From Phoronis australis (taxonomy: Eukaryota; Animalia; Phoronida), in contig NMRA01000568.1 of assembly GCA_002633005.1 (NCBI GenBank), positions 207,842 to 271,841 of the forward strand: a stretch of 64,000 nucleotides of DNA, read 5' to 3'. Below the pieces are notes generated by a model that had not been told where the DNA came from, ran no database searches, and saw only the letters and a list, made by a program, of their open reading frames with translations. Each line of letters begins with the position of its first letter. Position 1 is the first letter of the stretch. Shown here piece after piece: positions 23,838-57,428 of the stretch. Made by a program: the position numbers and the translations under genes.

Positions 23838-24106
23838 ATGTGAGAAAGATCTCTTTACGAAGAAAAGATCCCGAGATCCAAGTCAAAATATACCAAGCTC
23901 ACAAGAAAAGTCTTCGCGTACATACACTAGTACAAGTCCTGGACAGAGAGTTGGATGATATGAGGATTCGTTACCTAAGGGAGGTGAAGAGACGTGACCA
24001 ATTTCGTAAAGATCAATTGCAACGGCGGATCATTACAACACACTAACTTCGCAACGCGTTCTACAAATATGAGGAGAAACAGTATAGTCAACAGGCGTTT
24101 GGTTAA
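23838..24106 (+). pseudogene. Stem-loop-terminated helical protein family, copy 1 (subfamily B); premature stop
   Basis: ...PEIQVKIYQAHKKSLRVHTLVQVLDRELDDMRIRYLREVKRRDQFRKDQLQRRIITTH*LRNAFYKYEEKQYSQQAFG*. TAA replaces the Gly of THGLR, and the start region is disrupted. Confidence 0.8.
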
Positions 24107-24155
24107 GACAGATTGGCCACTTCTGGGGAATCCTCAATTCCACAATAAAAACAAC

Positions 24156-24202
24156 AGCCCTTTTATGGGCTACCCACAATCACCAAAAAGAGCTGCTCGC
24201 TT
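24156..24202 (+). terminator. Histone-type 3' stem-loop + ACCCA + HDE-like element (copy 1)
   Basis: aacaac-AGCCCT TTTA TGGGCT-ACCCA (top pair mismatched), then AAAGAGCTG at 24187-24195. Confidence 0.75.
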
Positions 24203-26549
24203 AATATGATGGTGAATTATCTTATGATTTACCGGAAAAATGAAACGTTCTGTTGTCTTCGTACTTCTGGCAGTCAAATTAAATAAGTTGTCTCTTGAAA
24301 TTTGTTCACAAAGAACAACTTAATGACTGGATATGACGATTTGAAACATAATTAAGATCAACTATGGCATCATGTATAATGTTTTGGGTGACAAAAGTTA
24401 CCTGCAAATTGGCCGCATTAATGGTATTCAGACGGTAGTCTAGCATCATCAATTTAACTGATTTCAGTTACGTAACCAGCCGACACGAAACTCTGGTAAC
24501 TAGAAAAACACAAAGCGCTGCAAGACATGAAACTAAAATTAACTCAAATTTATACTTCGTTAAAGTGTTCTAAGTCTTGCTTGAACATATGGAAAATGAA
24601 AAAAATATCTTTTAATAATTCAAGGTTAATATATTAAATTAAAGGGGAAAAGAAGGGAGGTTAGTGGATGAACGAGAATATTCCTTGCTTTTATTAAAGT
24701 TAAGGGTCGTCATTACGTTGTATTACAGATAGCTGGCCTTAGTACATATCCTCACAGTTAACTCAAACGCAGAACCAAATTGGCGCGTAATTCTTGACTT
24801 CCTCAACGTCACTTCCGGAGTACGGCACGAGTAAGTATTACAAGAAGCCATAAAAGTGAAAAACATGTCTGGGATAATCAACGAACCTTATTTTAACTGA
24901 AAATGGCGTGAAAAAAGATTGCCTTCGCATTAAGAGATTGAGAAAATTTTGAAGAGGTTAGAGGGCTTTCACTCGCGATCCGTAAAAAATGGATATTTAT
25001 CTAGACCGCTTTTGGCTTTAAAGTTGGTTTCAACTTATTGTCATTTGAGATGAGAAGATGGTTTTGGTCTCGCTAACTCTTTGCGGTTCGTTATTCCTCG
25101 AGATCATGCGTGGCTATTCAAATAATCATGATACACTGTACGTCGTAAAAAGTCACTTAGCCTAAAAGCCAAACAATAGCAGACTGGAAGCTCTTTCCAA
25201 GCCAAGAAATCACGTTTTGCAAGTAAATTAATATTGGACCTGTGGGTTTTAAGATTTTCTGTACTGTGTTCTTTTGGCTCAAAATCAGAGAACGTTTCTT
25301 TGAATTCAGGAATTCTTATGAATATATTCATAAGCGTACATGTAAGTTCCACAAATAAAACGACCATTTTAATTTACAATACTTAAAGACTATCGTTGGT
25401 ATAAACTTGTTTCTTGCTCAGCTTAGACGTGATTCTGGTATTGGGAAGATGTGACAGTTACTGGTCATTTTTGAAACCCCGATTCGATGAGGTGGGCGTC
25501 CGGGGCTCGTCATGGGAGTTGTTAATGTTGATCCAGTCATCGTTCATTGACCAAGAGTGCCTTCAATAGACATAAAAACGAACGAACACAAAGGATCTGT
25601 ATGGTGGCTAATTAAAGGTTGCGGAAAAGTAGTACAGTTTTGAGCAAACGACACTTTTAATGTTTGTAGTTGGCTATCTCGCGCATTTTACATCTATGTT
25701 GCCCCCGGTGTCACCCAACGTAATTAAAACACTGGAACAGTTGATTAACCACTAAATTTCTCCAAATTCTTGAAGAAACAAAGGACAGAAGCAAACAATA
25801 AAACAGATAAAGACTCTAATATACTAGATATCAATTGTAAGACCCATAAAAGTGAATGTGGACACCCTTTAAGAAAATGGTTGAGGTGAGCCTTTAAAAA
25901 ACTGTGGGGACGAACAAGGAAACTCTGGTAACAGGTAGAATAGTACGAATCGCTGTAAGCACACCTGTATATTACTGAATAGAAGTACAGTATACTATAC
26001 AATCAATAATGGTCTAGAGCATATTGAAAATGATAAACATATGTTACGTGACGTGAGAAAAACACACGAGCAAATGTCAAAACCCGCGGAAGCAGTTACA
26101 AGAAAATCAGAACTTGAAGATAAAACACTCAAACCAAAACGACTTGCAGTTGTGGGCGACAGTTAACGTTTCAAGAAATTCCCATATTTAAAAGAAAAGC
26201 AAGGGAATGTATACCCATTTCCCGCCGGAAATTGTAGTGTACTTGCACATTACCTAGAACACTGTGCGAGTGGTTTGGGTGTTTGTCAGTGGGAACACTT
26301 AGTATGCGCTTACCAAATACCAATTTACACATGCATATAACTACCGCAAGTGCTGATGAACAAAACACTCTCTTTTCGGCCACTTGACCTATCGCCAGGA
26401 TTATGACGGCCGGCTTAATTGACCAATCAGAAAGCAGCATTATTGGCACACGTTCGTCTGCGTTTCCAAGCCGCCATTTTACCCGACAAACCACACACAG
26501 TCGAGTAAAACCTACTTTAGTCTATAGCTCAAGAAATTGTCCGCTAAGA

Positions 26550-26705
26550 ATGGGAAAACGGTGTTGATATGACGTGTGTAGCACCGACAGCCGTTATGCT
26601 ACTTCAGAATAACATCGAGTCATTTTTGGCATGTCCTAAGCCGAAAAATGATGTTGAAAAGCGTAAACTATGGATCAAACTGTACTGCCACACGAGCAGC
26701 TGAAA
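26550..26705 (+). pseudogene. Degenerate THAP-like N-terminus (transposon remnant)
   Basis: MGKRC*YDVCSTDSRY.../PKPKNDVEKRKLWIKL/PHEQL resembles THAP C-x4-C...FPKP...W, with stops and frameshifts. Confidence 0.5.
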
Positions 26706-27422
26706 TTAGCGATGTTGCTTGATAACTCGAAGGCTATAATAAACACAAACATATTAGTTCCAAGATACGCACTTTTCAGCTTAGTGGTGGCTATGGTGCA
26801 GGGCTATCTCAGATTTTGACTCCCGAGTTTCCTACGTCTGGCCGCCTTTGTCACGGCACCTGCTGGATCTCAGCACTCTAGCGGTAGTCCCCGGAAATTG
26901 TTGTTTTCAAGGACATTTTTATTTTATTTTTTTTTAATTATTTCAATCTAATGGACATTGTTTAGTTTCGTGTCAGAGTTGCATTTTTGTTATACATAAA
27001 CCGTAGGCTGGTGTTCAACTGAACTTCTCTCCCGGTCAAAATTCAGAGATTTGATCGGCACAGGGAAGGGCTCTGGATTACTGCCGGAACTCAAAGCCTT
27101 GGTCGAGCTGTTGAATTACTTGATGAAGTGTACCTCTAGTATATACTAAGTCTGCAGAGAGGGCTCATTTTGAAGTTGTTCAAACATGATATTTAGATTT
27201 ATGAAGCTTTAAAAAAGAATTTGAGTTATTTTTGTAAATACCCTATTTTTGCAACTACCACACCAGACTTGTATTCTTTTGTAACCATACCACGACTTAG
27301 TGATCATGCTATCTTCAAAGTTAAATGAAAGCTACCTCTATGGAATGAAACTACAAAAAATGCCAAGTTCATAAGAAAATAGGCCTAATGTAAATGTCTT
27401 AATGGTGCAAACGGATAATTCC

Positions 27423-27751
27423 ATAGGCGGATTTAGGGGGGATGGGGACCCTACCCCCCCCCCTTGGCTGCCGCAAGAAAAATGAAACAGGAACAGCATG
27501 AAGCGTGAGGAAATATTGAGTTCAGTAACTAGGACCGGTAGCGGAAGAGGGGGACTCAGTCCCCATATCGCGGCGGAATCGTGTTCCTGTTTTTTTAGTC
27601 TACTGATAGATTTTCTGAACAGAAGGTCCAACGGTCTACATCCCTGGCCCCTGCAACTTTCGGGGCGCCTATGCACATGCAATCGCACTTTGCCCAATTC
27701 CACGAGGCAACATATGTTGGGCCCCCCTGTGGTATCCTAGATCCGCCACTG
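27423..27751. mobile_element. Possible hAT-like MITE
   Basis: GC-rich block bounded by ggcggatttagg ... cctagatccgccactg inverted ends. Confidence 0.45.
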
Positions 27752-28631
27752 AATTCCAGACATTAATTTGACTTAGACACAGCACCAGACCTACCGGAGC
27801 TAACCGTTTGCCTAGGACGAGATGAGTGTGTACCTGAGCTATGAACCTGGATTTTTTGACCAAAATATTTCGTTACAAGATTAGAAAAGCGTAAACAGTG
27901 CTATCGAGTCGACCTAGTCAGAGACTATAGTGCATGTGTAGTCTATAATCTATGACCTACTTTACTCCAGGAGTCCCACCAGTTGTGACCTACTTTTCAT
28001 TTGGCGAAATTTAGCAGACGACAAAACAAAAATATCGGTGAATCTTCATTGATTTTAATCAAAAGATCATGAAGTGAAGGTGGCCCCGAGGCCGAGAAGT
28101 TCATCGGATTTTCGCTGGCTTATCGAGCACTTATTTTTTCATCGCCACCTTTACAAATTCCCATATCGTGAACGTACGATTCTATGTTGAAAAGCATCCC
28201 CTCTTGTCCCTGTCGAAGCGTTTTCAAATAGTGCAAAAAACCCATCTATTCCACCAGGAACGTCGTTTAGCGACAGTGTATTTAGCTCTGACATCTCGTT
28301 CGATTGTCGGGTATCAAGTGACTTTTTGCAAAGGGGCGGAGCTTGCGATAGGTCAATTCTAGCTTGTAATAAAGAACATTTGCTGCCATTACATACACTG
28401 TACAAATGTTTAATGATAATGATGATAATAATAAATAACAATAATAATTATAATAACAATAATAACAATGTTATATATTTGTAATAATACCGTTTTAGCA
28501 AAGCACGTGACTATAATCTAGTTCGCCATGGACTAGATCTGACAGAACTGCCGGAATGTCACGTACGTTAGCGGTGCCAATCATCATGTTTAGGTTACAT
28601 CAAATATCGAAACACTGTCAAACAGCTCTCT

Positions 28632-28921
28632 TTACGAAGAAGTGGCAACAACCTCGTACTCGCCAGTGTCTCCCACACTGACATCAGTGGACAGTTTAGC
28701 ATACACTCCCTGTGGGCCTTGTGACTCACATGCATTTCTAAGTCTTTCATAAACGGGCACCTGTGGCAGATTAGCGTACGTCACGTCCTCAGCACTCTGG
28801 TAAACTGTGGAGTTTATTTCGGAGTAGACGTCATCTTGAACCTGATTGTCGTCAACGAGCTCAGATGTTCCCATTGTCCTGATTTTGTCCAGCATTTCAA
28901 AGCTTGGTCCAATGGGCATAC
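28632..28921 (-). CDS. EGF-LamG receptor exon 6 (last): Tyr-rich cytoplasmic tail
   Basis: Acceptor caacag|GT, phase 1. GMPIGPSFEML...DVYSEI..TVYQSA..VTYANL..PVYERL..GVYAKL..GEYEVVATSS*. Confidence 0.75.
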
Positions 28922-30026
28922 CTGTTGCAACATACATGTACTTGAAATTATAATACAGTGGTTTTGAGATTACTGTCACGTTCAAAGTTGAAACACGCCG
29001 AAAGAAAATGTCTCAAAATCTTTCAACGTCATGGTAATCAATTTCGTATTAAAACCAACACTTCCCTTGCTATCTTTTCAAGAGGAACCGTCGTGGAACT
29101 TCCTACGGTATACATGTAGATACTGAGGCAGGCAAAAATGAAACTCAGTGCTAACATGGGGTGTCATATTAACCATTCTCCAAAAGTCAATCTTAACCAT
29201 GCTCTTCTGAATATTATCAAATCCGCCAAATTACATCAATATGCATTAAAAACGTGATCAATATTGAAGAAATCAAGATAGAATGTTTGTCAATTCCCGT
29301 TTGGTACTGCAATAATGAGACAAGGTTAAAAACCATTTTCCAAACAAATGAGATTCTCGTTTCATTTAACGCAAATTTGAGACACTACACTGGTGTAAGT
29401 GATATTTTGCGAGCACAAAATCTTGCAGAACATCCTGAGAAGAAATTTTGAATCAATAAATTTTAGTGGCCACTATTGATTGGATGATGCTTGAAATTCA
29501 TGTATCACTCGAATTCAAAGAACACAGTTTTAACCAACCAAGAACCATATAATTCTTATCATGGAATCTAATTAGCCACTATGTGGCGAAAAGTGCTTTA
29601 AATCGGTCTGAGTTACAGCTGCGAACGGTGGAAGGGCGGATGCCGGAATGAGATGGCAGCAATTTACAGTACCCACATATTAAAGGGGATATGCTTGTAC
29701 TAAACCACTTTTTGATATCTTTCAACTTTATAACAAGAACAAGTAGCTGAGGGGCAATTTCTGTCCATAAAACTATTACAGCTTTGACGTTAAATCTTCA
29801 ATAGTAAGCTTCCTCAGAGCTTCCGCCGTAATTCTTTCCCTTTGAAACGCTGGGACAAACTTTTGTAACCCCAGCGATTCCAGCAAGACCATAACTGCAT
29901 AATCTAAAATGATTATTGGTATTCATAACATCAATAATATTCTTCAAAATAGTCTTTAAAAGCCCAAATGAGAATAGCATTATTTCAGTAATGTGATCCT
30001 TGAATATGAAGTGGAGAGTTTCTTAC

Positions 30027-33622: not shown

Positions 33623-35931
33623 CTAGAAATACAGTTTACATGTATCACTGAAGGAAGATTGACATGCGTGAGAAAACGTCAGGGGGCTTTTTCGGAAACA
33701 ACCATTTTCCTGAAGTGATTTTGCTTTCACAAAAAGCTCCCTGATTGTTTAGGGAAAAGTGAAGGGACTTACCCGGAAATTTATATTGCTTACCACAACG
33801 CACTGGTTTGGTTGTGAGTTTTAAAAGTGTTATAAGGAGTAAGTGACGTACGTATGTACACCGATGGTGGCAACGGAGGAGCTTATCTATTTCCACATAA
33901 TGTTTAACTTTCATTAACTTGATACACCAGACACACAAAAAGACAGGCTTCTCATTAGAAATAGTTTGGCTACATTAGATTAGTCCGCCGACGTTATTGG
34001 CAAGTCCCCAAAATACTTGAAGTATTTTAACGGTTCTTTTAAGAACAAATTTGAAAAACAATGACACATTTTCCATACATTTGCATGCTCCATAAATGCA
34101 AAACTGTCACGAAAAACCCGTGCCCATTAGGTCTTTTTCGGTCGCTGCCTCCGATAGTGCCCCAATCGGAGCTTGATGTTATTGGATACTCCTTCGGAAA
34201 TCCCCGGTACACTGCTAAATTTCTAGTGATATTAACTTGTGACTGAGCCTAATAACCCAAACGATGCGCACGCAGTCATCAATGAGTAGGCAGAAGAATT
34301 CTCACTTGTACATGTATTTCCTGTAACTCAATTTAGCAAATTATAAATTCATGAGTTGGACATTCCAAATTCTCATCACCGTTGTTGTTCAAGTTTGTTC
34401 CACGTGCTGAACCAGTACTACTTCACAAGTCTTAGCGTTGTATAGAACCTCATGAACACGTCAATGTATTTTGCCAGATATCTACAAAACTATGCATTTT
34501 AACTCACTAAAGGTATATTTATATATAGTAGAGAGCCTGTGAAATTTGATTAGTGACTTTTCACCGATCTTCCATTAGTAGGGTAGCTTGGCGGCCACAT
34601 GTACAATATTGCAATAAAGAAATGTGCGTTCACAGCAAACAACGGTACAGGTGTGTAAAATTGTTTTTGACAGATTCATATGAAATCCTATCGGCCATTT
34701 CCGAGACATGATGTTACAGTATGATATCAAACCAAAAACATCTGCATTTGTTTTAAACCCATCGAAATTTAACAATGCTTCGTGCAAAACTTTTAGGATG
34801 AATTGTGCATACTTTTAAGTTAAAATCCAAACTTCAATTGTGTTTGCATATAAAGCACCAGAAAAATTGACGTGGCATAACTATCAAAACTCAATAAGCT
34901 TCATACATGTATTTTCTAGCTCAAGTTACATGTAGAACGTGCATGAATGTTTTTGCTAAACAGAGCGTGTGTTCATATGATAGAAAGTGTCTTTGGTGCC
35001 ACTTTTCTTCCTCATCTGATGAAGAGTCGAATGCTAAAAAGTTAACGACGCTTAGTTCAATAATTTTGGCGAAGAATTCCATGCGCGCTTTATGTTGAAC
35101 TAGTAGATCTGAAATTTAGTGAGTTATTATAGTTACAAATGCACGTGTATCCATAACTATATCTACATGTATGCATGTGTATGTATGTGTATATGTAGAT
35201 GCATATTTACTGGACTTTAAAGTATTTACATGTACATGTATACCAGTTTCCTCATTGTCTAATCTTATCAGTCTCGACATACATGAATGCCTTTTTCGTG
35301 GCACTATTTTTAATTTTGGCAATGGAATTTAATTTTACAGTATTTAAAATGACGTCATGCTAAATATATGTAGCTAGTTGTACAGGTCTGCCGGCTTTAC
35401 ATTGTAAACAGAAGCCCAGGCTAAGTTCTGTAGTTCCAAGATATCTTCATGAAATATTTGCATACGTGCGGGAAGCATCCAATTCTATCTAAGTTCAGTG
35501 CCATGAATTAACGTTTTCAACCAATCACTCCAGCGGTCGCTTTTTCGCCATGTTTCGCCAGTAAGGTCTAGAGCACACTCGCGAAACCTTTGCAGTTCAT
35601 TCGTGTGAAGTTGCGTGATCTCGGTTTACGAAACACTACCCTGCCTTTTTGTCTTGAAAAATGCTTTCAAAAGCATCCAAAAAGCCAATAAAACGCACAG
35701 TCAAGTACGTATACTTAAGTCTTACACAACATCAGTTGACAATGACCTCCAATTGTCCTTTGAACACACTGGACACAAGAACGCTGGTGACATCACCCAA
35801 TAAAGAGAGGTGTCTCAACATTTGAATGCCATTTCTAAATACACTGTAACTACAGCACACATACATGTAGACACATACGCGGAAAATTTTTGACACAAAA
35901 TTACTATGAGATAAATTGATCTTGAGCTTAC

Positions 35932-35982: not shown

Positions 35983-36705
35983 CTGTAAACAATGCAATAC
36001 AGAAGACAATAAGTTGCAATTAAGACAAACACTTGCACTTTACCAATGGAACACCGCGGCATTACAATCTGTGAGGACCATTTTGGAAAGCAATGTGTTC
36101 AATGAAGAGGTAAATCCCTTTTGAAATGTTACAAAAAGAGGCTGTTGTTTTAACCAAAGGTTTATGTACGATATAAATGTGCCGACCGAAAAACATCTTT
36201 GGTATGAACACGGAGACTATTGTAAAGGAAAGTTTTAACGACGAAGCCTTATGAAATGGGACAAACATTGTAAATATATTTTTTAAAAACTACAAACACG
36301 CCATGAGAGCTTCATAGATTTAAATTTGTCCCACAGCAATGAAAACGAGAGGGCTAAAGTATTTTACAAAACAACCTACCGATCTCATAGAAGAGAGGGT
36401 AAGTGATGAGTAGGTGGGGGCAAAGCCCCTGACAGTTTGGCAAAATCGGACGATCTCGCCTTCTGTCCTCGTATTTGGTATGAACGTGGCAAGGCCACCA
36501 TGAAATCGACTGGATGGCAACAACTAGTATTCATGACTGACTTGGATGTTTCTTTGGTTGATGCGACAACGGCTGAATGGCAACAGCGTTAGTGGCTAAC
36601 TGTAGAATGTTTGACTGCAACTGGGAAACAATTGACTTAGCTCTTAATATATCAATATCAAGTTTCAGTTGCTAAAGGATAGGCAAATGTGTGCTTCACA
36701 CTCAC

Positions 36706-37864
36706 CATACTGGCATGTCTTCCCATAATACGGATGTTGACAGGTACAATAGTAATCAATCCAGGCATCATGGCACAAGCCCTGCCCATTGCAGGGGTCG
36801 GGAGTGCACTGCATGACCCTAGGACAACCCTCAGTCACGTTCACCGTGTGCTTGTAAGTGGATGGTAATTGCATTACATGTTCTAACTTCCAAAAGAGAA
36901 AAAACAGGTAGACCGTAATGGTGATATCTCTCAGACAGCCAGTGAAATTGTTCTGCGATTGTGAACAATTTCTGCACCCGTCACTCACTGTTCCGATCAC
37001 AGTGTCAGTGCTGGTTTCCCGGAATGACAGTCTCCAAACAGATTCCAAATACATATACTGCCTGATAGTGTCATTGCCATCGCCGTATAAATCCGCTCGC
37101 AAAACGCTGGAATTGGATAGCCGAATGAACGATAAACCCACTGTATGCCACTCTCCGTCATTCACCTTGCGGTCAAACGTCAAATTCTTGCTATTGCAGG
37201 CAACTATGAGTTTCGACTGGAAAATCTCCATCAGGCAGAAGTCATCATCGGCGTCCCGAGGAGGCTTATGGAAGAACAAAACTCCATTGTCCAACGTCGT
37301 CTTGAAACTCAGTTCAACCGAACTGACACGCCAGATCCTGGAAACATTCAGCATAATACGAGAGTAACTGTTCATGGACACCGTAGTGGCGTTACTGCAG
37401 GTATCTCCCGTATACCCTGGTAGACACTTGCAAGAGCTTGCCTGAGTCACACCATCGCTCTTGAGAAACGGCTGGCAGGTGGCGTTGTTCTCACACCGAT
37501 TTCCAATGCCATAGCAGCCTGTCAGCTCAACGCTGCAGTTTCTCCCAGCAAACATTTTACCTTGCGAGTCGACGCTAGTTAGACATGCACATTTATAGCC
37601 CCCCGTTTGATCAGTGCACGTTGCACCATTCTGACACGGAAAACTCTCCTCGCACTCATTAATGTTCTCACTACAGTTCCTCCCCCTCCAGCCTGCGGCA
37701 CACGTACACACGTAGTCGTTCACCAGATCCCTGCAAGTGGCGCCATGTAAGCAAGGTTTACCTAGGCACTCATCTATGTCAATTTGGCAGTTGACCCCTG
37801 ACAAACATAGAACAGAAATAATTAACACGACCACAATAAACACTGATGATCTCTCAGCATCCAT
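36706..37864 (-). CDS. EGF-LamG receptor exon 1: signal peptide, 3 EGF (two Ca-binding type), laminin-G, EGF; Crumbs-like ectodomain
   Basis: Signal MDAERSSVFIVVVLIISVLCLSGVNC, EGF starts DIDEC and NINEC, LamG motifs LSFKTT..NGVLF, VNDGEWHTV and FTGCLRDI, terminal EGF CHDAWIDYYCTC. Donor TATG|gtgagt, phase 1. Confidence 0.92.
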
Positions 37865-46127: not shown

Positions 46128-46166
46128 AAAAGTGAACATTTCATTTGGTTAGCCCTAAACAGGGCT
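46128..46166 (-). terminator. Histone-type 3' stem-loop (copy 2) with partly deleted downstream element
   Basis: Minus strand: caaac-AGCCCT GTTT AGGGCT-AACCA-AATGAAATGTTCACTT. Stem at 46151-46166. Confidence 0.65.
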
Positions 46167-46191: not shown

Positions 46192-46461
46192 TCATTCAAA
46201 CCAGCAATTTCGTGAAGCCTTAAGACGAAGGAGAGTAGAAACAGGTGAGCTTTTCTTTCACCGTAGTGGTAAACATGTCGCGCAGTCCATGGGTGATCAT
46301 CTGAAGCTGTTCGAGGCAACCGCCTTCCCACTATTCAGCGCCCTCTCGTAGAGGATGTCAATATCTTGCAGTTCGTTGTCTAACAAATCGATTTGCTCGG
46401 CTGCTTTCAAGTATTTCTTCTGCATGTTGTAAAGTTTTTCATCACATGCAAATTCCTCCAT
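46192..46461 (-). pseudogene. Stem-loop-terminated helical protein family, copy 2 (subfamily A-like); frameshifted
   Basis: MEEFACDEKLYNMQKKYLKAAEQIDLLDNELQDIDILYERALNSGKAV.. then, out of frame, MITHGLRDMF/YHYGERKAHL..., ending TTTGAATGA like copy 3. Confidence 0.8.
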
Positions 46462-49374
46462 AGTGTCGAAAACGAAAACGAATGTGCACTCCATACCTAG
46501 TAGAATGATTGTGAAGGCTGCGTTGCTACTCTTTGTTAGTCGAACATTGTTTAATGGCACGTGTCCTTATACATGTAACAGAAAAAAGGTTTGATAATTC
46601 ATTAGGTCCAATTAACGCTGGATTTGCACTTTCATTATTTTAGTAGGAAACGTAGACTCCTTTTGTTTGGCTTACTCAACCTCAACATGATGATTAAATT
46701 CCATCAAATAAGCAATACATGTAACTGATAAAATTCACCCTATAACTGGAACTTAATTGTTCTAATTTTAACACAAGCATAACATTCAAATTTCTGACAT
46801 CATAGAAAGAAATCACCGATAAGTCTGTCCCCAAAACTAAGCCTACTCCTTCAGAATGGGTAGGTTGAGAGGTGAAACACACATGCATCAGTTGTCCACA
46901 TTTTATAGTCAAGGCGCAAATTTTTACAACTGAACATTTTTTGCATCAATGACCCAAATAATCTACGATCGGTCTGTTGAATGCCGTGAAAAATTATCAG
47001 ATAGGTGTCTGAATCAGAATTGAATTGAAGGCAGTGTGACAGCTACCTAGCAAAAAAGTACACCGGAATTTAAATATAAAACGGAATTGTGTGCTGAATT
47101 CAATATAGATTGTTCCACAGACCGTTTATGTATAGGCTGTAGCACCTTAGAAAAAGTAGAAATTTAGCTGAAATCCGCACACTGTATCTCAAAAATGGTT
47201 GACCTGGTTGAAATGAATCTCTCTTGTGGTGTGCGTTACACAATGGCCGTAAAAAATCAAGGTTTTCTAAAAAGCTCTGTTTTTGAAAGAGGGTGATGAA
47301 CATTGGCGTTGATTCGAAAACGAAATGAATAATTTAGACAATTGATGCGCACTTGTATCAAACAAAATTTGGTTACGTCATTAATTTTCTATGAACGTGT
47401 CTTGATTGTTTTTGCTAAATTTGACTACTATATGGTCAAGAGGTCAAATAAGTTGTACAGGTTTTTTCTTTCAAGAATACATGTATGTGTACATTTCTGG
47501 AAATCCTATATTTACAGTGTATGTAGGTTCATGGCTCAGAATGCACAGATTAATTGAAAACGCCTTACCTAACTTAAGCTTCCTAATACCCCAATTTGAC
47601 AATAGGCAATACCGTAAAGGAGACAACAATGCAGTAGGTCTGATAGGCGGGTTGCGTGAGGTGACTGTGCCATTGAAGGGAGAGATTTTAATCTGTTGTA
47701 TACTACTACTGAATGGCTTTTCAGAGTGTGCAAAACATCAGCAAAGTTCTGTAAACAACTATTTGACAGATTTTCCGTGCCATGGATTCTTGTCAGAATT
47801 TCTATTAGTTCCAAAATATTCAGAATGACGTCTTCACTCAACTTTCAAATGGGTCACGAAAGTCTACTGCAAACATTATATACAAATCAGACGACCACAT
47901 AATTTTCTATTTCCAACTATTTGAAGTGACTCAGTATAAGGCTTCTTCGTCAATATTTACTTAAAGATTTGTTACGTGGAGTTTTAAAAATTATAAAATT
48001 TGGCCATTGTGAAACATCATGTGGCGCGGTATTATTTCAACCAAAATAAAATAAAATAAAATGTTTTAAATTTTGACATGTTTGGATTATGCTCAGCAGT
48101 TTTATTGAACTAATCAATCACCTAATACGTCCAGTAATAATTCACAGCTTTTTTAACTTATTTTTAAAAATCAGCCTTTGGGCTCATTAAATCTAACAAA
48201 TGATGTTGTTTTTGACGACATGTAATGAAATATACATGAGCAGATCCAAGATATCATGAGGAGCACCAACTTTTTCCACAGCGAATGCGAATCTTGAACT
48301 ATCTCAATTGCTGATTCGTTTTACAATTGTTGTAAGCATTGATCAAGTATTGCGCGGTTTGCAATGCATAACCAGCTGCTGTATTGAGACAAAGTTACAT
48401 CTTGAGAAATATCGGTTCAAAGTGTTGCACAACTCGTTACTGGGAAACTGGGGTTACCTTAGCATCGTGTTAAATAAAACCAATATTCATTAGCATGTAA
48501 ATTGACATTTCCTTTTTCAGACATTCACCGAGAGCGAAACTATTTTTATTTTCAACTGAAATAGTTACATGTACGTAAAACAGGTCAGCCATAGACTCGT
48601 ATCTTGGTCTTGTTGTTCATTTTCATCCAACAAACACATTGCTCGGTTTGCTTCTATAAATTCAACACAAAAACAAGTATACGGCCTTATACTAGGCCAT
48701 TTAAATCATTCCGTAATTTCTGCATGCTCAATGTTGCACCACGGCAACCGTGACAATTCTCTAAATGAAAAACTAGAATTCGTTTGTTTAGTAAAGACGA
48801 TACAAAAACCGTTTGGTTTCCAAATTAATGTGACTCGTATTACTCCAAAAAGATTCATCTTACAGTCATACTTAATGAAAAGTAAGACCTAAATTGGAAG
48901 AAAGTTCGATTGCCATTGGGTACCTATAAAGACACAGTGGTAATGCAGGTTATTGGCAAAAATATCAACAGAAACTTTCTGCTGTAGAAAAGAAACCTTT
49001 TTTCAGCAACATCGTGAATTATTTTCTACTTATTGACCTATCCGTCTCAGATGAGTGAGGGTATTTAAAAGGAAATTGTAAAAATTTTGAATATTAATGC
49101 ATTCTTGTCTGAAAAAAGTGAACCGTCCGTTTTTATGATAGAAGGGCTGTCAATTTTGTTTCATTCAAAGTAGAATATTCGTGGTTTTGAGGTTCATACA
49201 AGTATACACGTAACATGATTAGTGAGTTGTACATGTACAACGACAAAAAAAGACACCTACACTTGTGGCCACAGACATTCAAGGTGCGAAACGTCACACT
49301 TGAAAATATTGTATATTGTAGTCCGGTTCACCCCTTTGGCGGTTAATCCAACCTCTGTGAAGCATAAAACTTCG

Positions 49375-49396
49375 TGACGTCATGGAGTCACGTGAC
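49375..49396 (+). promoter_or_regulatory. CRE (TGACGTCA) + E-box (GTCACGTGAC) ~100 bp upstream of copy 3
   Basis: Perfect palindromic motifs. The same pair lies at 56975-56995 before copy 5, and TCACGTGAC at 52412-52420 before copy 4. Confidence 0.5.
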
Positions 49397-49490
49397 ACTG
49401 AACACAGCTTGGCTAACTGGAAATAAAAACGCTGACTTCAGAATCAGTCTACTCACATTTAAATTCAAATTCAGATTCGTTCTTACCACG

Positions 49491-49763
49491 ATGGAGGGTC
49501 CTACGCTTGATGAACAACTTCACAACGCCCAGGCAAAGTGCTTGATAGCAGCAGAACAAGTCGAATTATTGGATCGAGAACTGCGAGATACCTACGAGAG
49601 GGTTCTGGAAAGTGGAAATGCAATTCGCCGGGAACAGTTTCACCGGCGCGTGATGATCACGCATGGACTGCGCGATATGTTTTACCACTACGGTAAAAGT
49701 AAAGCCCACCTGTCTCTATCCCTCTTTCGTCTTAAGGGTTTGGGAGATCGCTTGTTTGAATGA
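49491..49763 (+). CDS. Stem-loop-terminated helical protein family, copy 3 (subfamily A), open 90-aa intronless ORF
   Basis: MEGPTLDEQLHNAQAKCLIAAEQVELLDRELRDTYERVLESGNAIRREQFHRRVMITHGLRDMFYHYGKSKAHLSLSLFRLKGLGDRLFE*. ATG in good context (ccacgATGG). It has an in-frame 3-codon deletion (DIR) relative to the repaired copy 5. Confidence 0.8.
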   Translation: MEGPTLDEQLHNAQAKCLIAAEQVELLDRELRDTYERVLESGNAIRREQFHRRVMITHGLRDMFYHYGKSKAHLSLSLFRLKGLGDRLFE

Positions 49764-49789
49764 GTAATTCAGACATACACCAGAAAAAC

Positions 49790-49836
49790 AGTCCTTTTAA
49801 GGGCTAACCAAATGTTCCAAAACGAACTGTTCACTT
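49790..49836 (+). terminator. Histone-type 3' stem-loop + HDE-like element (copy 3)
   Basis: aaaaac-AGTCCT TTTA AGGGCT-AACCA (one U-G wobble), then AAAACGAACTGTTCACTT. Confidence 0.75.
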
Positions 49837-52509
49837 AATATGATTTGATTGTGAGGGATCCGAAAACCTGACGGCACAGTTATGTCAAAAACTACTTAGT
49901 GATAAAACACAAAGCGGCATTTCATTTCAGCCTAGTAAAATATGTAAAATAAAAATAGCCTCTTTTGAACATGTTCTGTACAGATACTAATAAAGTAATG
50001 CATTTGTTTATTATTGAAACAAACATATAACACTTCAGGCACCCAAAAATATTGTAACTTTAATTTGAAACATTAAACCCATCATAGCAAGTTTATATAT
50101 TGAAATCACCAGGTTGGCTGATTCCGGTTGTCAAACACCCAGGAATGAGCACCTGCAGTAGCAAGGATAAACAACGCATGCGCATTTTGAGATTGCATGT
50201 CTGTCGCTTATTGTTTCTTGTAATTTTTACGGTGTCACTCTTTTAATGAAGAGCAATTGAAGCAAAGAGTGGCAAAAACACAAAATCAGCACTTTTCATT
50301 CCAAGACCATCACTTCCTTGCCGCTTCACGACTTAAGCTATCGTTAGTATATGAAAAAAAAATTCTTACACATTCCGAAAATGTGGTCAACATCTAATGC
50401 TAATAAACTATTGTTTTCAAATCTGTTGAAAGTTGTTGTTCTTGACGACAACCTTTCATGGTTCAAAAATACAAGAAGACGTACAGTGTATACATGTATG
50501 GGAAATCATGAGGGTACCAATTTTCTCCACCAGGAATAAGAACTACTCTTCGAAATGTTTTAATTTCTGGTGTGGTAATATTTTCCTGTCAAATGTTGAA
50601 TGCCAGTCACTAAATACGAAACGATTTGCAGTGCAGTACTGCTCATATGTTTGACGCCAATGTACTGAATCATGTTTGCATATTGAGAAATATTCATTTA
50701 AAGTCCTGCTCGTCACGTTACTGTAAAAGTTAATATACTAAATCATAATCTGTTAATGAAAGCGGATGTTCACTAGGTTGTCAATTAAAAATCTCTTTTG
50801 CAGTGTTTTACTGAGAGCGTGGGTAGTTTAGTTCTTCAATTTCGTTACGTGAACTAGTTATACGTAGCATTTTGTCTTGTTCCTGCATACATATTCAGTA
50901 AAATAACGCATTGAGGGGCTTGTTCATAGTGTTAGAATGCACAAAATTATGATGGCATAGGCAAGTACATGTAAGGGTGAGGGGGAAGGAGGGACGGAGG
51001 GAAGAGAGGAAGGGAGAGAGGGACGGACGGACGGAGTGAGGGAGGTGTGGAAGGGAATCTCATTTGTACGGGTTAAATTACAATAGTTAGTATACATGTA
51101 GATGTCAATTTCATGATAAGATGTTCATTACATGCATGTATATTCATTTTTACAAATCTTTTCTCAATAATAAACATGAATAAAAATCGTTCAGTAAATG
51201 TATGAACTGAAGTGGCATAGCAATGAACAGAAAAGCCATATTGGATGAGAATATACGTTTGCGTGTCATGACATGATTTGGAATGTATTTTTCTTTAATA
51301 GTATCAGATGGCTTGTATTGCATGTTCTTATGTTTTCACTGACGCTTCTGCTATAGGAAGAAGTTAGCGATTCAATAACTGCCAACGTGGGGTCTGGTGG
51401 GTGTATCAATACGTAACAATGTGGCCCTACTGTTAAGGGAAATATTAATTTTGAGGACATAAAGTTCGAATAGATATTTGAAAATTGAGTTTTCAAGATA
51501 CGATTTAAACAAAGTTTCATTGAAAAAATGAATCATTATCTAGTCTAATGTTGCCATATTCATTACGACTGGATACTGTATTTTGAAAATACTTTTAACT
51601 TCTGCGATTGAATTTCGTTTTTTCATGAATTGGCATTCAAGACCATAAATAAATGCAATGTTGTTTAAGTAATATAAATCGATAAATTAAGTCTTTTACT
51701 TGTTTTTTTAAACATGTAAAACAGTGCAGAGTGTGTCCTTTACTTTCTTGTAACCTATTTGTGCAGCATCGCTTGGCCCTTTACAAGTACGAATAAATTC
51801 ATCAACTGCACTCAATAAGTTTATTCATTTCAGCACTAAATTGTAATTTAACACGTTGCAGGTTATTTAGATTTTTCCTCCCTGATTTACAAATAATCTA
51901 CATTTACACAATTAACAGATACCATATGTATATTCATGATATGTACATGGAAATATGATTGAGAGCTAATATTTGAAAGCGCAATAACCTTAGTTTATAG
52001 CCTGAGTTTAAACATGTTGACCTTTTGTAACAGTATGACGTCCAATAAACGTGGGTGCGAATGACTAGATAATTGACACGTCCATGAAAAATGTTTTCAA
52101 CAAATATTCCTGCAATCATCATACAGCCTTTTCACTTAAGTATCTTTCACTTTTTAAATAAGAAGTTAAAGTTGTACAACATTTATTGAATGGGGGTAAC
52201 TTGCTTTTAAGATCCACTATTATCTGCTATTTTTCGTAACTACATGAATATGAACAGACCAGTCGACCAGTCATCACTAACTGTTACACAATGGCATTCT
52301 ACGTAAAGGGCCGGATCCAGATGTGCCGCTGGCAGTAATGCGGATTAAACTGCCACAGGTCATAAGTACTTAACATAATCTCTGCCTAAGTGGCTACCAC
52401 ACCTCTTTGAATCACGTGACACCATCTCAACATATATTAGCTTGGCCAACCAGTGTTGGCTAACAACTGATCAAGACATTGTTTGTGACGTACAGGTTCA
52501 TAGTGTAAA

Positions 52510-52774
52510 ATGACGGAACCCGAGATGCAAGTCCAAATATACCAAGCTCATCAGAAATGTCTTCGCGCACGTACACAAGTACAAATCCTGGACAGAGANG
52601 TTGGATGACATGAGGATTCGTTACCTGAGGGCGGTGGAGCGACGTGACCAAGTTCGCAAAGATCAAATGCAGCGGCGTATCGTTACAACGCACGGGCTTC
52701 GCAACGCGTTCTACAAATATCAGGAGAAACAAAAGAGTCTGGTTCTCAATCTACGCGAACAGGCGTTTGGTTAA
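52510..52774 (+). CDS. Stem-loop-terminated helical protein family, copy 4 (subfamily B), 87 aa; intact if the n at 52599 is spurious
   Basis: Skipping n52599 gives MTEPEMQVQIYQAHQKCLRARTQVQILDRELDDMRIRYLRAVERRDQVRKDQMQRRIVTTHGLRNAFYKYQEKQKSLVLNLREQAFG*. Copy 1 has gacagagagttg with no extra base. Confidence 0.8.
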
Positions 52775-52835
52775 TACATGTATATGTACACATTGACGAC
52801 TCTCGTGGAATCCTCAAGTCCACAATAAAAACAAC

Positions 52836-52882
52836 AGCCCTTTTAAGGGCTACCCACAACTACCAAAAAGAACTGCTCACTT
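52836..52882 (+). terminator. Histone-type 3' stem-loop + ACCCA + HDE-like element (copy 4)
   Basis: aacaac-AGCCCT TTTA AGGGCT-ACCCA, then AAAGAACTGCTCACTT starting 15 nt after the stem. Confidence 0.85.
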
Positions 52883-55800
52883 TACAACCCGGTGAATTAT
52901 TTAAAAATCATTTTACCGGAATGTGAAACATGCTGTTGTCCTAGCATTTCTGCCAGTCAAATTATTTAAGTTGTCTCTTAACATTTGTTTATAAATAACG
53001 GCTTAATGACTGGATATGACGATTTTAAACATAATCTAAGATCCATCATGGCCTCATATATAACCTTTTTGGTGAGAAACGTTACCTTCAAACAGACGCC
53101 TTTATGGTAGTCGGATAGCAGTCTAGCATTATCAATTTAACTTATTTCAATTACATTTCCCGTCGCTATGAAACTCGTGAAACTAGAAAAACGCAAAGCA
53201 CTGCAAGCGATGAAACTAATATTAACGCAAATTTACATTTTGCTACCCATTTTAAAGTTTTCTAAGTCTAGCTTGAACTAATGAAAATTGAAACATTCAT
53301 CTTGAAATAATTCAAGAGTGCAGTGATCTTTTTGATGAAATGAGAAAAGACATATTGATTACAGTACCAACGCAAGTATTAGTCGGGAATTTCACAAAAT
53401 GTACCGATACGTCTACCATTGTCCTCACTTTCATCTAGCGATCACCGTGCCCCAAGGTATTATATACTGTTGAAATATCTATTCTCCGGGTGTGGGTGAA
53501 TAACAACTTATTCTCCATATTAGCAGTAGCCGCAATGTCGCAGGGTACGTTACGAGATGTGTATGGGGATTCCACGCTAATATTCATCGCGGATTCAAAT
53601 TTTTGAATACTACACTGTACATACATGTATACCCGGCGAACGAGAATTTTTCCCCCGAGCACATTGTAACTTTGAATTTGAAAAATTTGAATCCATAGTG
53701 ATCGTTTTAGATATTAAAATCGTGATTTGATTTCTGTTGTGGAATGCTCAATTAGGAATACCTTTCAGTAGCCGCTGATTGTCATACATGTACGTTGATT
53801 GATGGTCATGCCTTTATGGCTCAGTATGGTCAGATAGACGTTTACTTTAACTGGAGAAAGTGGACGGTTTGTGCTAAATCATTCGTAAACACAGCAACAC
53901 GGAAGTGGACGGTCACACAACCAGTGTCTTCATGCTAGTTTCTACATTTAAAGACCTCATTTTGCAAACGCAACGACTGATACAGCCCATGTTATGTGGC
54001 GAGTCGGTCACAACGTTTTGCTCGAGGAAAAGTGTTGCAGAAAAAAATATGCATGCACTTGGTTGCCGGGGAAAGTGTAGAACTTCCCTTTTGTTTGATA
54101 AATACGAGGAAAAACTCGTCGGCTTGTAGAATGGTAATGAAAGTGTGACAAATACTGGGATAACTATACTGGTCTAAGATTCAATAAATTGTTGTCTTTT
54201 ACATACAATGTAATTAAAATTGCTGCACGATAACTTTTGAAACGTAAATACAAAAAATGACAAAAATTGACAGTTTCTCCAGCCATTTTATCAGTGATTA
54301 CGAGACAAGTGCTTCGCCATTTTAGAAAACGAATGTCAAGGTTGGTTTGGGGTTGGGTGTAACAGAACAGTTCTCATTATGATTAGCCTTGCAAAACACA
54401 CATCACTAGATTTGTCACGTATTTTTCACACTGTCGCAAACGGTATGCAAAAATGACAGGGTTTCAATCAGTTCACATCAACAGCCCTGCAGATGCACCC
54501 AAAGGTTTTAATGTGTCTTGTATTTTTGGTCCTTTCACTCTTATTAAAATCAAGAAAGCTAAGAAAAACGAAGGGACATAAATTCGGCACTAGTCTCTAC
54601 AAAACCCCCAATTGTGAATTGTGAAAGGAAATTTCTTACAAATTCCAAAATGCGGTCCAAAAGTACATGTACATGTACAGTTCACAAACTAATTTTTTTG
54701 CAAGTCCGGTTTGTTTAAGAGCTACCTGAAACCGCAGCCAATTTCTCAGTCGCTAGACAGCAATGCACAAATGTAATACAGTAAGGGAACGCTATCATAA
54801 AGACGTCAACNTTTTTCTCATGCTCAACATGTCTACAAACAAACCACAATAACTGAGGCTTTACATGTGTACTTGCAAGACCTAAATAAAAACTCATCAC
54901 CAAGAGTGGTCTATCCATAGATTTAACATTTTGGCACTGCAAATTGGCCGTGGCCGCCTCCTAACTGTTCAGTGGCACCTCCGTGTGTTGTCGAATAATC
55001 AGGCAGAACCGATTGTTGATCATTAAGCGAACGTTAGGAAGAAAAAGGAAAAAAATGATTGTGTTTATACAGGTGAAATTTCAAAAATCAAATTTAATGT
55101 ATCGTTTTTCCCGTTCTATCACAAACATCGAGGGTAGCCGTATAACTTTTGTGTTGTATATTCATTTTTACTTCTCATTTTTTCGTGGATGTGAAGTATG
55201 CACGTCAATTTTATGTGAGTAACTGCGAATTTGTCCAAGATTACGAATGGCGTGCCAAAACGGAGATATATTGCTGAATGGACAAATTTGACGATAACGT
55301 CATACCAGGTCATTCAAGGCTACTGTTTAATTTAGCGTTATGGAGATAACAATATTTTCCTTTGCGACCACGCTTGGATTATACAACTGTAGGTGTAGAA
55401 TTATGACTTGGATTATGGTCCGTCACCTAATCGGCGTTCTCTGACAGGTCTCATTATCTCAGTGGAAGGCAGGTGATAATATTCGCGTCATTGAAGGGAG
55501 TGATTTTAATCCGTGGTATACATGTACTGTACCTCTACTGCATGACCTGACAGAGCGTGTGAAAGATGTGGAAATATTGTAAACAAGCACGTGGCTGATG
55601 TATGGTCTATTGGTTATTGTCCGTGTCAGACTAAATTACATGTATGTAACTGTAAATTTCAAAGAAAAGTTCAAAGTTTAACTCTGGAACAGAATGACGT
55701 CATCATTCAGCGTTCGATTTGGCTTCAAAAATCTTTTTATTCACATCAGAATTAATGTACAACTCAGATGAACACTCATTTCTACATCTCCAACTTCCTG

Positions 55801-57068
55801 ACGATAGTGTACAAGACGGCCTATAAAGGCTTGATCATTATTTACTTAAAGCAATTTTATGCGAAATTTTACAAGTAAAACTTAAAAAATTTGGTCGTCG
55901 TGAAGTTTGATATCGTTCGGCATTATTTACACCAAAATGAAATAAAGTGTTTTATCATTACTTTTTATTTCTTTGAAAAAAATCGTGTTCAACTGTTTTA
56001 TTAAGTTTGTCAATATCGTAAAACGTATAGTTAACTGCTTTCTGGGACATGTGTCCAGCTTTTTCAACATATCTCTACCGCACATTTTTATAGGTAAATA
56101 GCTCCACTTCATTTCACCGACCACTTCATTTTACTTGGTCTAGTTACCGTACAGTAACCATTTGGAATTTTCTACCGTTACGTGACACGGCTATTGCAAC
56201 ACCATATGCGGAATAAAGGTGTTTGACATTAAACCCTCTTGAAAAAAGTGGAGTGGATTACTATACTGAGGCTGAAATACATCCCAAAATCTAACGTAGG
56301 TGTTATACTTTAAAAAAAAACCGAAACAGCAACTTTCTTGTCGTAATAAAATGATCGCGCAGCACCATCAATAATTTTCAAAAGTATGTTTTTGGCTAAT
56401 TAAATAAGAAATGTCATTGTTTTTGATGAAAACACATAATGGCGCAGAGATACACAACGGGGTACATGTATGTACTGTAGGGTATAATGAGGGTACTAAC
56501 GTTCTCGAATAATATAAAGAAGTATAGGATAGTTTAATGTTTTGCTGCAAGCTGTCAAAGCTTAAATGCCAATTAGTAAATAGTACACGATTTGCAGTAC
56601 AATATTCTTTTAATATTTGACGCAGTTGTACTGAATCAAATTTACATCTTGAGAATTATTTGTTTTAAATCCTGCATGGCACGTTACTGCAAAATTGTTG
56701 AATGCTAATGAATTGTTGTTGGGAAAATGTGTACAATCCCGTTCTTAAAAGGGCTATCACTTCAGTTTCATTCAACGTAACATAATCACAGTTTTGAGGT
56801 CCATATAAACTTCATTTGATTAGTGACTTATCCAACAACACGCAAACCAACAAAAGACATCTACATTTGTGGTCACTGAGATTAGAAAAATGTGGAAGGA
56901 GTCAGTTGTGAATAATATAGTTCGATTCATCAACTTTAACCGTTAATCCAACCTCGGTAAAGTATCAAACCTCGTGACGTCATGGTGTCACGTGGTACTG
57001 AACACAGCTTGGCCAACAGAATCAGCCTACTCATACTCGAGTTCACATTCAACATCGTTCTCGCCACA

Positions 57069-57355
57069 ATGGACGATCCTACGCTTGATGAAAAACTTAA
57101 CAAAGCCCAGGCAAAATGTTTGAAAGCAGCAGAACAAGTCGAATTATTGGACCGAGAGCTGCGAGATACCGACATACAGTACGCTACGAGAGGGCTCTGA
57201 AAAGTGGAAATGCAGTTCGCCGGGAGCAGCTTCACCGGCGCATGATGATCACGCATGGACTGCGCGACATGTTTTACCACTACGGCAAACGAATAGCCCA
57301 CCTGTCTCTATCCCTTCTTCGTCTAAAGGGTTTAGGAGATCGCTTGTATGAATGA
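57069..57355 (+). pseudogene. Stem-loop-terminated helical protein family, copy 5 (subfamily A); +5-nt frameshift
   Basis: MDDPTLDEKLNKAQAKCLKAAEQVELLDRELRDTDI/RYERALKSGNAVRREQLHRRMMITHGLRDMFYHYGKRIAHLSLSLLRLKGLGDRLYE*. TA is expanded to TACAGTA at 57175-57181. Confidence 0.85.
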
Positions 57356-57381
57356 GTACTTTTGTCATACACCAGAAAAAC

Positions 57382-57428
57382 AGCCCTTTTAAGGGCTACC
57401 CAAATGTTCCAAAAGGAACTGTTCACTT
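57382..57428 (+). terminator. Histone-type 3' stem-loop + ACCCA + HDE-like element (copy 5)
   Basis: aaaaac-AGCCCT TTTA AGGGCT-ACCCA, then AAAAGGAACTGTTCACTT. Confidence 0.85.

What the first reader, a model, noticed from the sequence alone, without database searches (positions are those of the whole stretch)
23838..57428. Non-histone intronless gene family that ends in histone-mRNA stem-loop + U7-type downstream element
Seen: five paralogs (23838+, 46461-, 49491+, 52510+, 57069+) each carry a 6-bp-stem/4-nt-loop hairpin, consensus AGCCCT-TTTA-AGGGCT, 25-61 nt after the stop. It is preceded by an A/C-rich leader and followed by ACCCA/AACCA. Four copies have a purine-rich AAA(A)GA(A/G)CTG-like element ~13-15 nt downstream. 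The signal is kept in both diverged subfamilies and both orientations while the surrounding UTR differs. Established: this architecture (GGYYYU-UUUN-ARRRCC-ACCCA + HDE, short UTR, no introns) is the SLBP/U7 snRNP signal and is regarded as essentially specific to replication-dependent histone mRNAs. Here the basal pair is swapped G-C to A-U on both sides, and the SLBP-critical second G-C pair is retained. The protein shows no histone motif I recognise. Inference: a non-histone family made as non-polyadenylated, SLBP-bound, possibly S-phase- or oocyte-regulated mRNA.
Basis: partly seen in the sequence, partly recalled or inferred. Interest (0 to 1): 0.93.

Follow-up and report, generated by a model that had tools for sequence, protein, structure and literature searches.

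The report
Non-histone genes with histone mRNA ends
Five copies of a small unnamed animal gene here, and most of its relatives in other animals' DNA, end in the RNA hairpin thought to be reserved for histone messages, so animals likely make a non-histone protein through the tail-less histone message pathway, although no such RNA end has been seen yet.

Summary
All five hairpins lie 25-61 nt after the homologous stop. Rfam Histone3 finds four (33.0-21.1 bits; none reaches the cut-off of 34). Four have a purine-rich element at +14. One more lacks three codons, and only 52510 looks whole.

The protein belongs to an unnamed invertebrate family (119 relatives, no Pfam). It is predicted to be a two-helix hairpin, not a histone fold.

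The main test: among 55 homolog loci from metagenome by-catch with enough 3' DNA, 42 carry the histone stem-loop right behind the gene. Most are the canonical G-C form, three pass Rfam's cut-off, and the stem covaries. A conserved mollusc/priapulid clade (0 of 4) and an intron-bearing clade (0 of 3) lack it, mirroring replication-independent histones.

Most likely these mRNAs are SLBP/U7-processed and tail-less. That is inferred: the RNA reads were too few to show ends, and at least one runs past the predicted cut. Eight literature searches found no report. This scan has noted what is probably the same family on other genomes.

The parts
21593..21758 (-). Sixth copy, decayed 5' fragment of a B-type gene, no hairpin
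   Evidence: blastn 72% over 141 columns to the 52510 copy; stops and frameshifts; no Rfam hit
23838..24106 (+). B-type copy, broken (ATG followed by TGA and out of frame; in-frame TAA at 24044; 21-nt deletion)
24156..24171 (+). Histone-type stem-loop, top pair broken
   Evidence: Rfam Histone3 23.8 bits; fold
24185..24195 (+). Downstream element, best match to human U7 5' end (10 contiguous pairs)
   Evidence: duplex -15.4 kcal/mol, below the 0.5th background percentile
46192..46461 (-). A-type copy, broken by several frameshifts
46151..46166 (-). Stem-loop with full stem but G at loop position 1; purine core of the downstream element deleted
   Evidence: no Rfam hit
49491..49763 (+). A-type copy, open 90-codon frame lacking three codons in helix 1, including the near-invariant Arg
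   Evidence: AlphaFold model
49790..49805 (+). Stem-loop (one G-U wobble); predicted cut near 49810
   Evidence: Rfam 21.1 bits; fold
49819..49829 (+). Downstream element, one interruption
52510..52774 (+). B-type copy, 87 aa if the N at 52599 is an assembly artefact; best candidate for a live gene
   Evidence: N left out in the X1 contig (depth 144 of 144) and 2 RNA reads
52836..52851 (+). Perfect stem-loop; predicted cut near 52856
   Evidence: Rfam 32.3 bits, E 2e-5
52865..52875 (+). Purine-rich downstream element
57069..57355 (+). A-type copy with 5 extra nt near 57175 (frameshift); other copies or alleles lack them
57382..57397 (+). Perfect stem-loop; predicted cut near 57402
   Evidence: Rfam 33.0 bits, E 1e-5
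57411..57421 (+). Purine-rich downstream element
49081..63912 (+). About 7.6-kb tandem duplication (49081-56072 versus 56691-63912) that gave the two forward A-type copies; no B-type gene is found in the second unit
   Evidence: self-blastn, flanks 70-79% identical

Best explanation
These are copies of a small, intronless, non-histone invertebrate gene family that carries the histone stem-loop and a purine-rich downstream element just behind the stop codon, so live members are likely cut by the SLBP/U7 pathway into tail-less mRNAs that would be made and destroyed on the histone schedule. SHOWN: the element, its position, its conservation and covariation across lineages, and its absence from an intron-bearing clade and from a slowly evolving clade. 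INFERRED from the known pathway: SLBP binds the hairpin, U7 snRNP pairs with the element at +13 to +24, and CPSF73 cuts five nucleotides after the stem (near 52856 and 57402). PREDICTED: the product is a two-helix antiparallel hairpin with a basic core, in most relatives followed by an acidic tail. I commit to a small nuclear partner of chromatin or nucleic acid needed in bursts in rapidly dividing cells, but that step is only about 25% likely. In this window the family is in birth-and-death turnover: one copy looks whole, one doubtful, three broken.
For: (1) 42 of 55 homolog loci with 60 nt or more of 3' DNA have the hairpin: 37 by Rfam, 5 by pattern only. L040, L035 and L036 pass the gathering score. 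33 of 36 Rfam hits with a clean stop lie 20-60 nt after it, median 35; metazoan histones have a median of 30 nt (10.64898/2026.10.14.759114, section 9).
(2) 40 of 41 Histone3 hits in 117 kb scanned on both strands are on the gene's strand. 37 follow the matched gene, 2 follow tandem copies, and 1 is a duplicated 3' end.
(3) G2-C15 and loop U3 are invariant in 40 distinct rows. Pair 1 switches G-C/A-U (27/13) and pair 4 U-A/C-G (14/11). Covariation is 0.262 against 0.148, 0 of 500 shuffles.
(4) A purine peak lies at +14 to +19 after the stem.
(5) In the window the 50-nt element is 94% and 90% identical within pairs, against 66-82% for flanks; dN/dS is 0.30-0.45.
(6) The hairpin is absent where an intron is present (L049, GT-AG; clade 0 of 3) and in the conserved clade (0 of 4, support 99/95).
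(7) A TATA-like box lies 40-150 nt before the ATG in 23 of 27 hairpin loci against 2 of 11 without.
Against: No RNA end was seen. Three RNA runs (18-19% of each read) gave only scattered paralog-derived reads and no pile-up of ends. Two reads join at the hairpin, and at least one runs 42 or more letters from the hairpin start, past the predicted cut; whether it is sense, antisense or precursor RNA is unknown. 13 of 55 loci lack the hairpin, and 6 of these (L009, L019, L029, L043, L050, L061) fall outside the two explained clades. None of the window hairpins reaches Rfam's cut-off. Pair 4 is unpaired in 15 of 40 rows. Pairing to human U7 is unremarkable for 3 of 5 window copies (-9.1, -8.2, -5.7 kcal/mol; 12% or more of background reaches these), and this animal's own U7, SLBP and histone genes could not be examined. 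The loci are related, so the counts are not independent: 20 of the 42 fall in one 70%-identity cluster. The covariation rows were chosen for having the hairpin. In human cells SLBP bound only histone mRNAs (PMC4604434).
Confidence: 0.7

Rival explanations
1. The hairpin is real and SLBP-bound, but the mRNA is mostly or partly polyadenylated further down (an H2A.X-like two-ended message); the hairpin serves translation or storage more than cleavage.
For: At least one RNA read passes the predicted cut. AATAAA/ATTAAA occurs within 300 nt of the stop in 11 of 29 hairpin loci examined, and downstream of three window copies. H2AFX is bimorphic (PMC4604434, passage).
Against: The downstream purine element is kept at fixed spacing, which is needed only for U7 cleavage. 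18 of 29 hairpin loci have no poly(A) hexamer within 300 nt.
Confidence: 0.12
2. The family is a selfish or virus-derived gene that captured a histone 3' end and spreads by duplication, using the host pathway without benefit to the host.
For: High turnover with many broken copies. Depth over the genes is 129-252 against about 45 on most flanks, so more copies exist in this genome. Tandem copies in L008, L011, L029 and L057/58, and a copy inside a 5S rDNA array. An unchecked note of this scan describes a Polinton gene with such ends.
Against: No relative in IMG/VR viral contigs. Duplicated units include kilobases of ordinary flank, with no terminal repeats seen. A slowly evolving clade is shared by gastropods, bivalves, octopus and a priapulid.
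Confidence: 0.1
3. At the level of this window only: all five copies are dead or dying, and the hairpins here are relics of live paralogs elsewhere in the genome. This is compatible with the best explanation for the family.
For: Three broken frames, one frame lacking a conserved Arg, a sixth fragment, two damaged hairpins, and almost no well-matching RNA reads.
Against: 52510 looks whole with a perfect hairpin. dN/dS is below 0.5, and the element is better kept than the flanks. A tail-less mRNA would be lost from poly(A)-selected libraries (library selection unspecified).
Confidence: 0.3
4. The protein is a diverged histone or histone-fold derivative, or the hairpins are chance matches, so nothing is unusual.
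For: Only that the 3' element is otherwise histone-specific.
Against: The AlphaFold model (pLDDT 90) has two long helices, 6-40 and 44-81. No histone appears among Pfam hits, PDB sequence hits, or the listed Foldseek and VIA rows. Strand and position bias of the hits across 60 loci.
Confidence: 0.03

Closest known systems
Metazoan replication-dependent histone genes: 3' stem-loop (Rfam RF00032), HDE, SLBP, U7 snRNP, CPSF73
   Same: 6-bp stem and 4-nt loop, invariant G2-C15 and loop U3, A/C flanks, short stop-to-hairpin distance, purine element about 13-19 nt downstream, no intron in the coding region, multi-copy and clustered, compact TATA promoter in most homologs.
   Different: The product is not a histone: predicted two-helix hairpin, no Pfam family. 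The window copies have an A-U basal pair (also seen in L002-L007, L017 and L044/45). No histone gene was seen next to any copy by eye in the part of the ORF list shown (output cut; short contigs). Processing is not shown.
Replication-independent histone variants (H3.3, H2A.Z): polyadenylated, with introns (PMC13525598, passage)
   Same: The family also has hairpin-less branches: one with a GT-AG intron (L049) and one slowly evolving clade.
   Different: Polyadenylation of these branches is inferred from the missing hairpin only; 3 and 4 loci were examined.
Generic helical hairpins (ESCRT-III/CHMP4 core, ING dimerisation domain)
   Same: Two antiparallel helices of about 35 residues; best VIA Z 10.1, rmsd 2.0 over 77 residues.
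   Different: No Foldseek hit at E 0.001 or better, identity 15% or less in the VIA rows, and scores tied with many unrelated coiled coils; not taken as homology.

Membership tests
Histone-type (SLBP/U7) mRNA 3' end | 16-nt stem-loop matching RF00032 | tested here: met
   4 of 5 window copies hit (E 1e-5 to 0.31), all below gathering 34; 37 of 60 homolog loci scanned hit, 3 above gathering
Histone-type (SLBP/U7) mRNA 3' end | G-C at stem position 2 and U at loop position 3 | tested here: met
   invariant in 43 aligned rows, including all five window copies
Histone-type (SLBP/U7) mRNA 3' end | Hairpin about 25-60 nt after the stop | tested here: met
   25-61 nt in the window; 33 of 36 homolog hits within 20-60 nt
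Histone-type (SLBP/U7) mRNA 3' end | Purine-rich downstream element at fixed spacing | tested here: met
   4 of 5 window copies; A/G peak at +14 to +19 across 46 distinct rows
Histone-type (SLBP/U7) mRNA 3' end | Complementarity to the organism's own U7 snRNA | tested here: inconclusive
   own U7 not available; human U7 as stand-in is strong for 1 copy, moderate for 1, weak for 3
Histone-type (SLBP/U7) mRNA 3' end | Mature, non-polyadenylated end just after the stem | tested here: inconclusive
   too few reads; no end pile-up; at least one read passes the cut
Histone-type (SLBP/U7) mRNA 3' end | SLBP binding, U7 dependence, S-phase coupling | not testable with these tools
   needs experiments
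Histone proteins | Histone-fold or H1 sequence signature | tested here: not met
   no histone family in Pfam for the window protein or 18 aligned members; no histone among PDB sequence hits to E 5
Histone proteins | Histone-fold three-dimensional structure | tested here: inconclusive
   the model is a two-helix hairpin; histones are not among listed fold matches, but absence from a list does not exclude them
Viral or mobile-element cargo gene | Relatives in viral contigs or element boundaries around copies | tested here: inconclusive
   two IMG/VR scans found none; eukaryotic mobile elements are poorly covered there; no terminal repeats seen

The most novel reading that the evidence does not exclude
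Invertebrates have a second, ancient class of non-polyadenylated mRNAs: an unnamed helical-hairpin protein family that uses SLBP and U7 snRNP. Like histones, it comes as multi-copy stem-loop genes for dividing cells and as hairpin-less, intron-tolerant genes for steady supply. The protein would be an unrecognised replication-coupled partner of chromatin, overlooked because its mRNA escapes poly(A) selection and the family seems absent from the usual model animals.
Probability: 0.5. Interest if true: 0.95.

Novelty: new variant of a known kind. Interest (0 to 1): 0.86.

Why it matters
Replication-dependent histone mRNAs are stated to be the only known cellular mRNAs without a poly(A) tail, and SLBP bound nothing else in human cells (PMC4604434, abstract; PMC5054213, introduction). 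A conserved non-histone client would overturn that rule and point to a protein whose supply is tied to histone supply. It would also explain why the family has stayed unnamed: poly(A)-based transcriptomes and single-cell atlases would miss it. The claim is cheap to test, because the predicted RNA ends are known to the nucleotide.

Tried and rejected
No whole genome is held for this window, so copy number, own histone genes, SLBP and U7 were not examined.

Sequence searches. A single-sequence search with the 49491 protein found nothing; a profile of window pieces was needed. Pfam, PDB-sequence and fold searches gave only coiled-coil noise. The ESM Atlas gave one unnamed eukaryote cluster at 0.87, a lead only. 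A search for longer fused forms gave one protein, a Mya arenaria gene model made of three tandem units; this is weak evidence that the domain stands alone. IMG/VR holds no relative. A hairpin-pattern scan of IMG/VR gave 5 stretches, none behind a family gene or a recognisable histone.

RNA. No RNA holder was listed for the stretch; this is no evidence either way. A finer RNA view of the gene ends was not obtained, so transcript ends stay open. DNA around the named mollusc, nemertean and priapulid proteins was not obtained, so their hairpin state is inferred only from unnamed loci of the same clade.

Rejected matches. The weak matches at 34027 and 30912 lie behind no family gene and were set aside as chance. 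The bacterial promoter scan is irrelevant here. The tree has few columns and long branches, so I draw no order of events or root from it.

Rows dropped. L046 was not scanned with Rfam. L060 and L061 were left out of the tree. Promoter counts used 27 of 42 hairpin loci (near-duplicates and two with doubtful starts removed) and 11 of 13 hairpin-less loci, with patterns chosen after viewing. The covariation alignment used 38 locus hairpins plus the five window ones.
Full report
OBSERVATION. The window is animal DNA: 37% GC, microsatellites, and an EGF/laminin-G exon. Rfam's Histone3 model, which knows nothing of this finding, hits four of them at 33.0, 32.3, 23.8 and 21.1 bits. None reaches the gathering score of 34, and one further hit at 34027 (E 9.8) lies behind no family gene. 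A purine-rich element begins 14 nt after the stem in four copies and is deleted in the 46461 copy. Between subfamily A (46461, 49491, 57069) and subfamily B (23838, 52510), blastn aligns only the hairpin and downstream element. In a global alignment that 50-nt block is 86% identical against 64% for the coding DNA.

STATE OF THE COPIES. Only 52510 looks whole; its N at 52599 is left out in the covering DNA contig and in two RNA reads. 49491 is open but lacks three codons, including an Arg found in at least 90% of the family. 57069 has five extra bases, which a contig at depth 83 of 130 and one read in each of two RNA runs lack, so other copies or alleles are in frame there. 23838 and 46461 are clearly broken, and these two also have the damaged hairpins. 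A sixth fragment lies at 21758-21593(-). The two forward A copies come from a tandem duplication of about 7.6 kb whose flanks are 66-79% alike, while the 3' element is 94% and the coding region 90% alike. dN/dS is 0.37, 0.45 and 0.30 on small counts. Summed contig depth over the genes is 129-252 against about 45 on most flanks, so the genome holds more copies (not a copy number).

THE PROTEIN. A profile of window pieces found 21 relatives among 1.84 billion representatives (E 8e-8 to 8e-4). A second round found 119, with named records from gastropods, bivalves, octopus and a priapulid, plus a nemertean, all called hypothetical or uncharacterised. No Pfam family is shared. AlphaFold on 57 sequences gives a confident two-helix model (pLDDT 90; helices 6-40 and 44-81). 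Fold searches return only generic helical hairpins with tied scores. In 128 relatives the core has a median net charge of +7, and 74 of 99 tails have net charge -3 or lower. The window proteins lack the acidic tail. The window copies group with one unnamed protein on long branches, so their place in the tree is unsure.

DOES THE HAIRPIN FOLLOW THE FAMILY? A metagenome scan returned 61 loci encoding relatives, most likely by-catch animal DNA, taxa unnamed. Six end within 60 nt of the stop. Of the other 55, 42 have the hairpin behind the gene: 37 by Rfam among 60 loci scanned and 5 more by pattern. Three pass the gathering score (40.2, 36.5 and 35.9 bits). Of 41 Histone3 hits in 117 kb read on both strands, 40 are on the gene's strand. 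Two follow upstream tandem copies in L008 and L011, and one is a duplicated 3' end in L015. The median distance from the stop is 35 nt, with 33 of 36 between 20 and 60 nt (L034 set aside for a 3' frameshift). The loci are redundant: 20 of the 42 fall in one 70%-identity cluster, but hairpin-bearing genes sit in many separate branches. In 40 distinct hairpin rows, G2-C15, C5-G12 and loop U3 never vary. Pair 1 is G-C in 27 and A-U in 13. Pair 4 is U-A in 14, C-G in 11 and unpaired in 15. Covariation exceeds all 500 shuffles and all slid controls; rows were selected for having a hairpin, and relatedness inflates this test. So most relatives carry the canonical G-C form, and the A-U form of this window recurs elsewhere (L002-L007, L017, L044/45).

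WHERE IT IS MISSING. Thirteen loci lack the hairpin. Four belong to a slowly evolving clade (support 99/95) that holds the named mollusc and priapulid proteins. Three form another clade (100/99); in L049 a GT-AG intron splits the coding region, and L048 breaks off at the same donor. The remaining six are unexplained; L061 is broken and L009 may hold a decayed element. Hairpin loci usually have a TATA-like box 40-150 nt before the ATG (23 of 27, against 2 of 11) and a GTGTCA motif (18 of 27, against 2 of 11) (post hoc patterns, related loci). This split resembles replication-dependent versus replication-independent histones, the latter being polyadenylated and typically intron-bearing (PMC13525598, passages seen).

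RNA. Three RNA runs of the same species label, read at 18-19%, gave 83-124 reads each on 8.4 kb, mostly on an unrelated repeat, with 94-96% matching only in part. There was no pile-up of ends. A few reads come from paralogs, mostly with the first mate on the plus strand; library selection and strandedness are unspecified. Two reads join at the hairpin and at least one extends 42 or more letters from its start, past the predicted cut. This counts weakly against clean cleavage, but could be precursor, antisense or pseudogene RNA. Expression and ends are therefore unresolved.

MECHANISM. [quoted passage not shown] Every cis feature named there is present. Pairing to nucleotides 3-18 of human U7 (sequence from a passage of 10.64898/2026.06.11.731563) is strong for 24185 (-15.4 kcal/mol), moderate for 57411 (-11.1, top 4% of background) and weak for the rest; the animal's own U7 is unknown. 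I put SLBP/U7 processing of live family members at 0.7. The protein's role is a guess: a basic helical hairpin, often with an acidic tail, made on the histone schedule suggests a chromatin- or nucleic-acid-binding partner (about 0.25).

PRIOR KNOWLEDGE. [quoted passage not shown] PMC5054213 (first quarter of the text seen) says the same and found no unambiguous U7 in basal deuterostomes. The 2026 survey looked downstream of histone genes only and never uses the word non-histone. Searches for a published non-histone case returned none, judged from listings and the passages named; subscription journals are largely not covered. PMC5368982 (passages) added nothing. This scan's own unchecked notes describe what is probably the same family in other genomes. 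Sequence look-ups did not link them, I had stated my reading before seeing them, and they are not independent support.

VERDICT. The feature is real, conserved far beyond this window and, as far as searched, unpublished. It is not a histone gene, but it is built to be processed like one. I class it as a new variant of a known pathway, a first non-histone client family, pending one RNA-end experiment. Interest 0.86.

Noticed in passing
window 20333-20842 (-): Intronless 169-codon ORF with the C-terminal part of a ubiquitin hydrolase domain (Pfam UCH, E 1.5e-15), single copy in the window; may be element cargo or an exon.
   Followed up: partly
window 36665-37864 (-): 399-codon ORF with signal-like start, EGF repeats and a laminin-G domain (Crumbs-like layout, label recalled), encoded as one long exon.
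   Followed up: partly
window 28353-28641 versus 23612-23864: The upstream region of the 23838 copy is duplicated (70%) without the gene; the ATG at 23838 may belong to this unrelated segment rather than to the gene.
   Followed up: partly
window, about 100-130 nt before 46461, 49491, 52510 and 57069: Shared CACGTG box, in two copies as TCACGTGAC, overlapping or beside the GTGTCA/TGACAC motif that is enriched before hairpin-bearing homologs (24 of 34 upstream regions against 13 of 140 background).
   Followed up: partly
L044 and L045: A family gene with an A-U based hairpin sits inside a tandem 5S rRNA gene array, on the opposite strand; histone genes are also linked to 5S genes in some invertebrates (PMC13525598).
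   Followed up: no
L064:2-1220 (IMG/VR contig of 16 kb): A long ORF without Pfam match ends at or just before a canonical histone stem-loop followed by an A-rich tract; a possible viral use of the signal, or host DNA.
   Followed up: partly
L059:59-2778: A hairpin-less member lies directly upstream of a TFIIIC-subunit-6-like ORF and an HMG-box ORF in a compact genome.
   Followed up: partly
L015:653 and 908: Two near-identical stem-loop plus downstream-element units 255 nt apart behind one gene.
   Followed up: no
window 54539-55100: Very high-copy repeat (summed contig depth above 20,000) that is transcribed on both strands as part of other RNAs.
   Followed up: no
window 8823-9787: 965-base assembly gap; bases 1-93 are repeated exactly at 1091-1183.
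   Followed up: no
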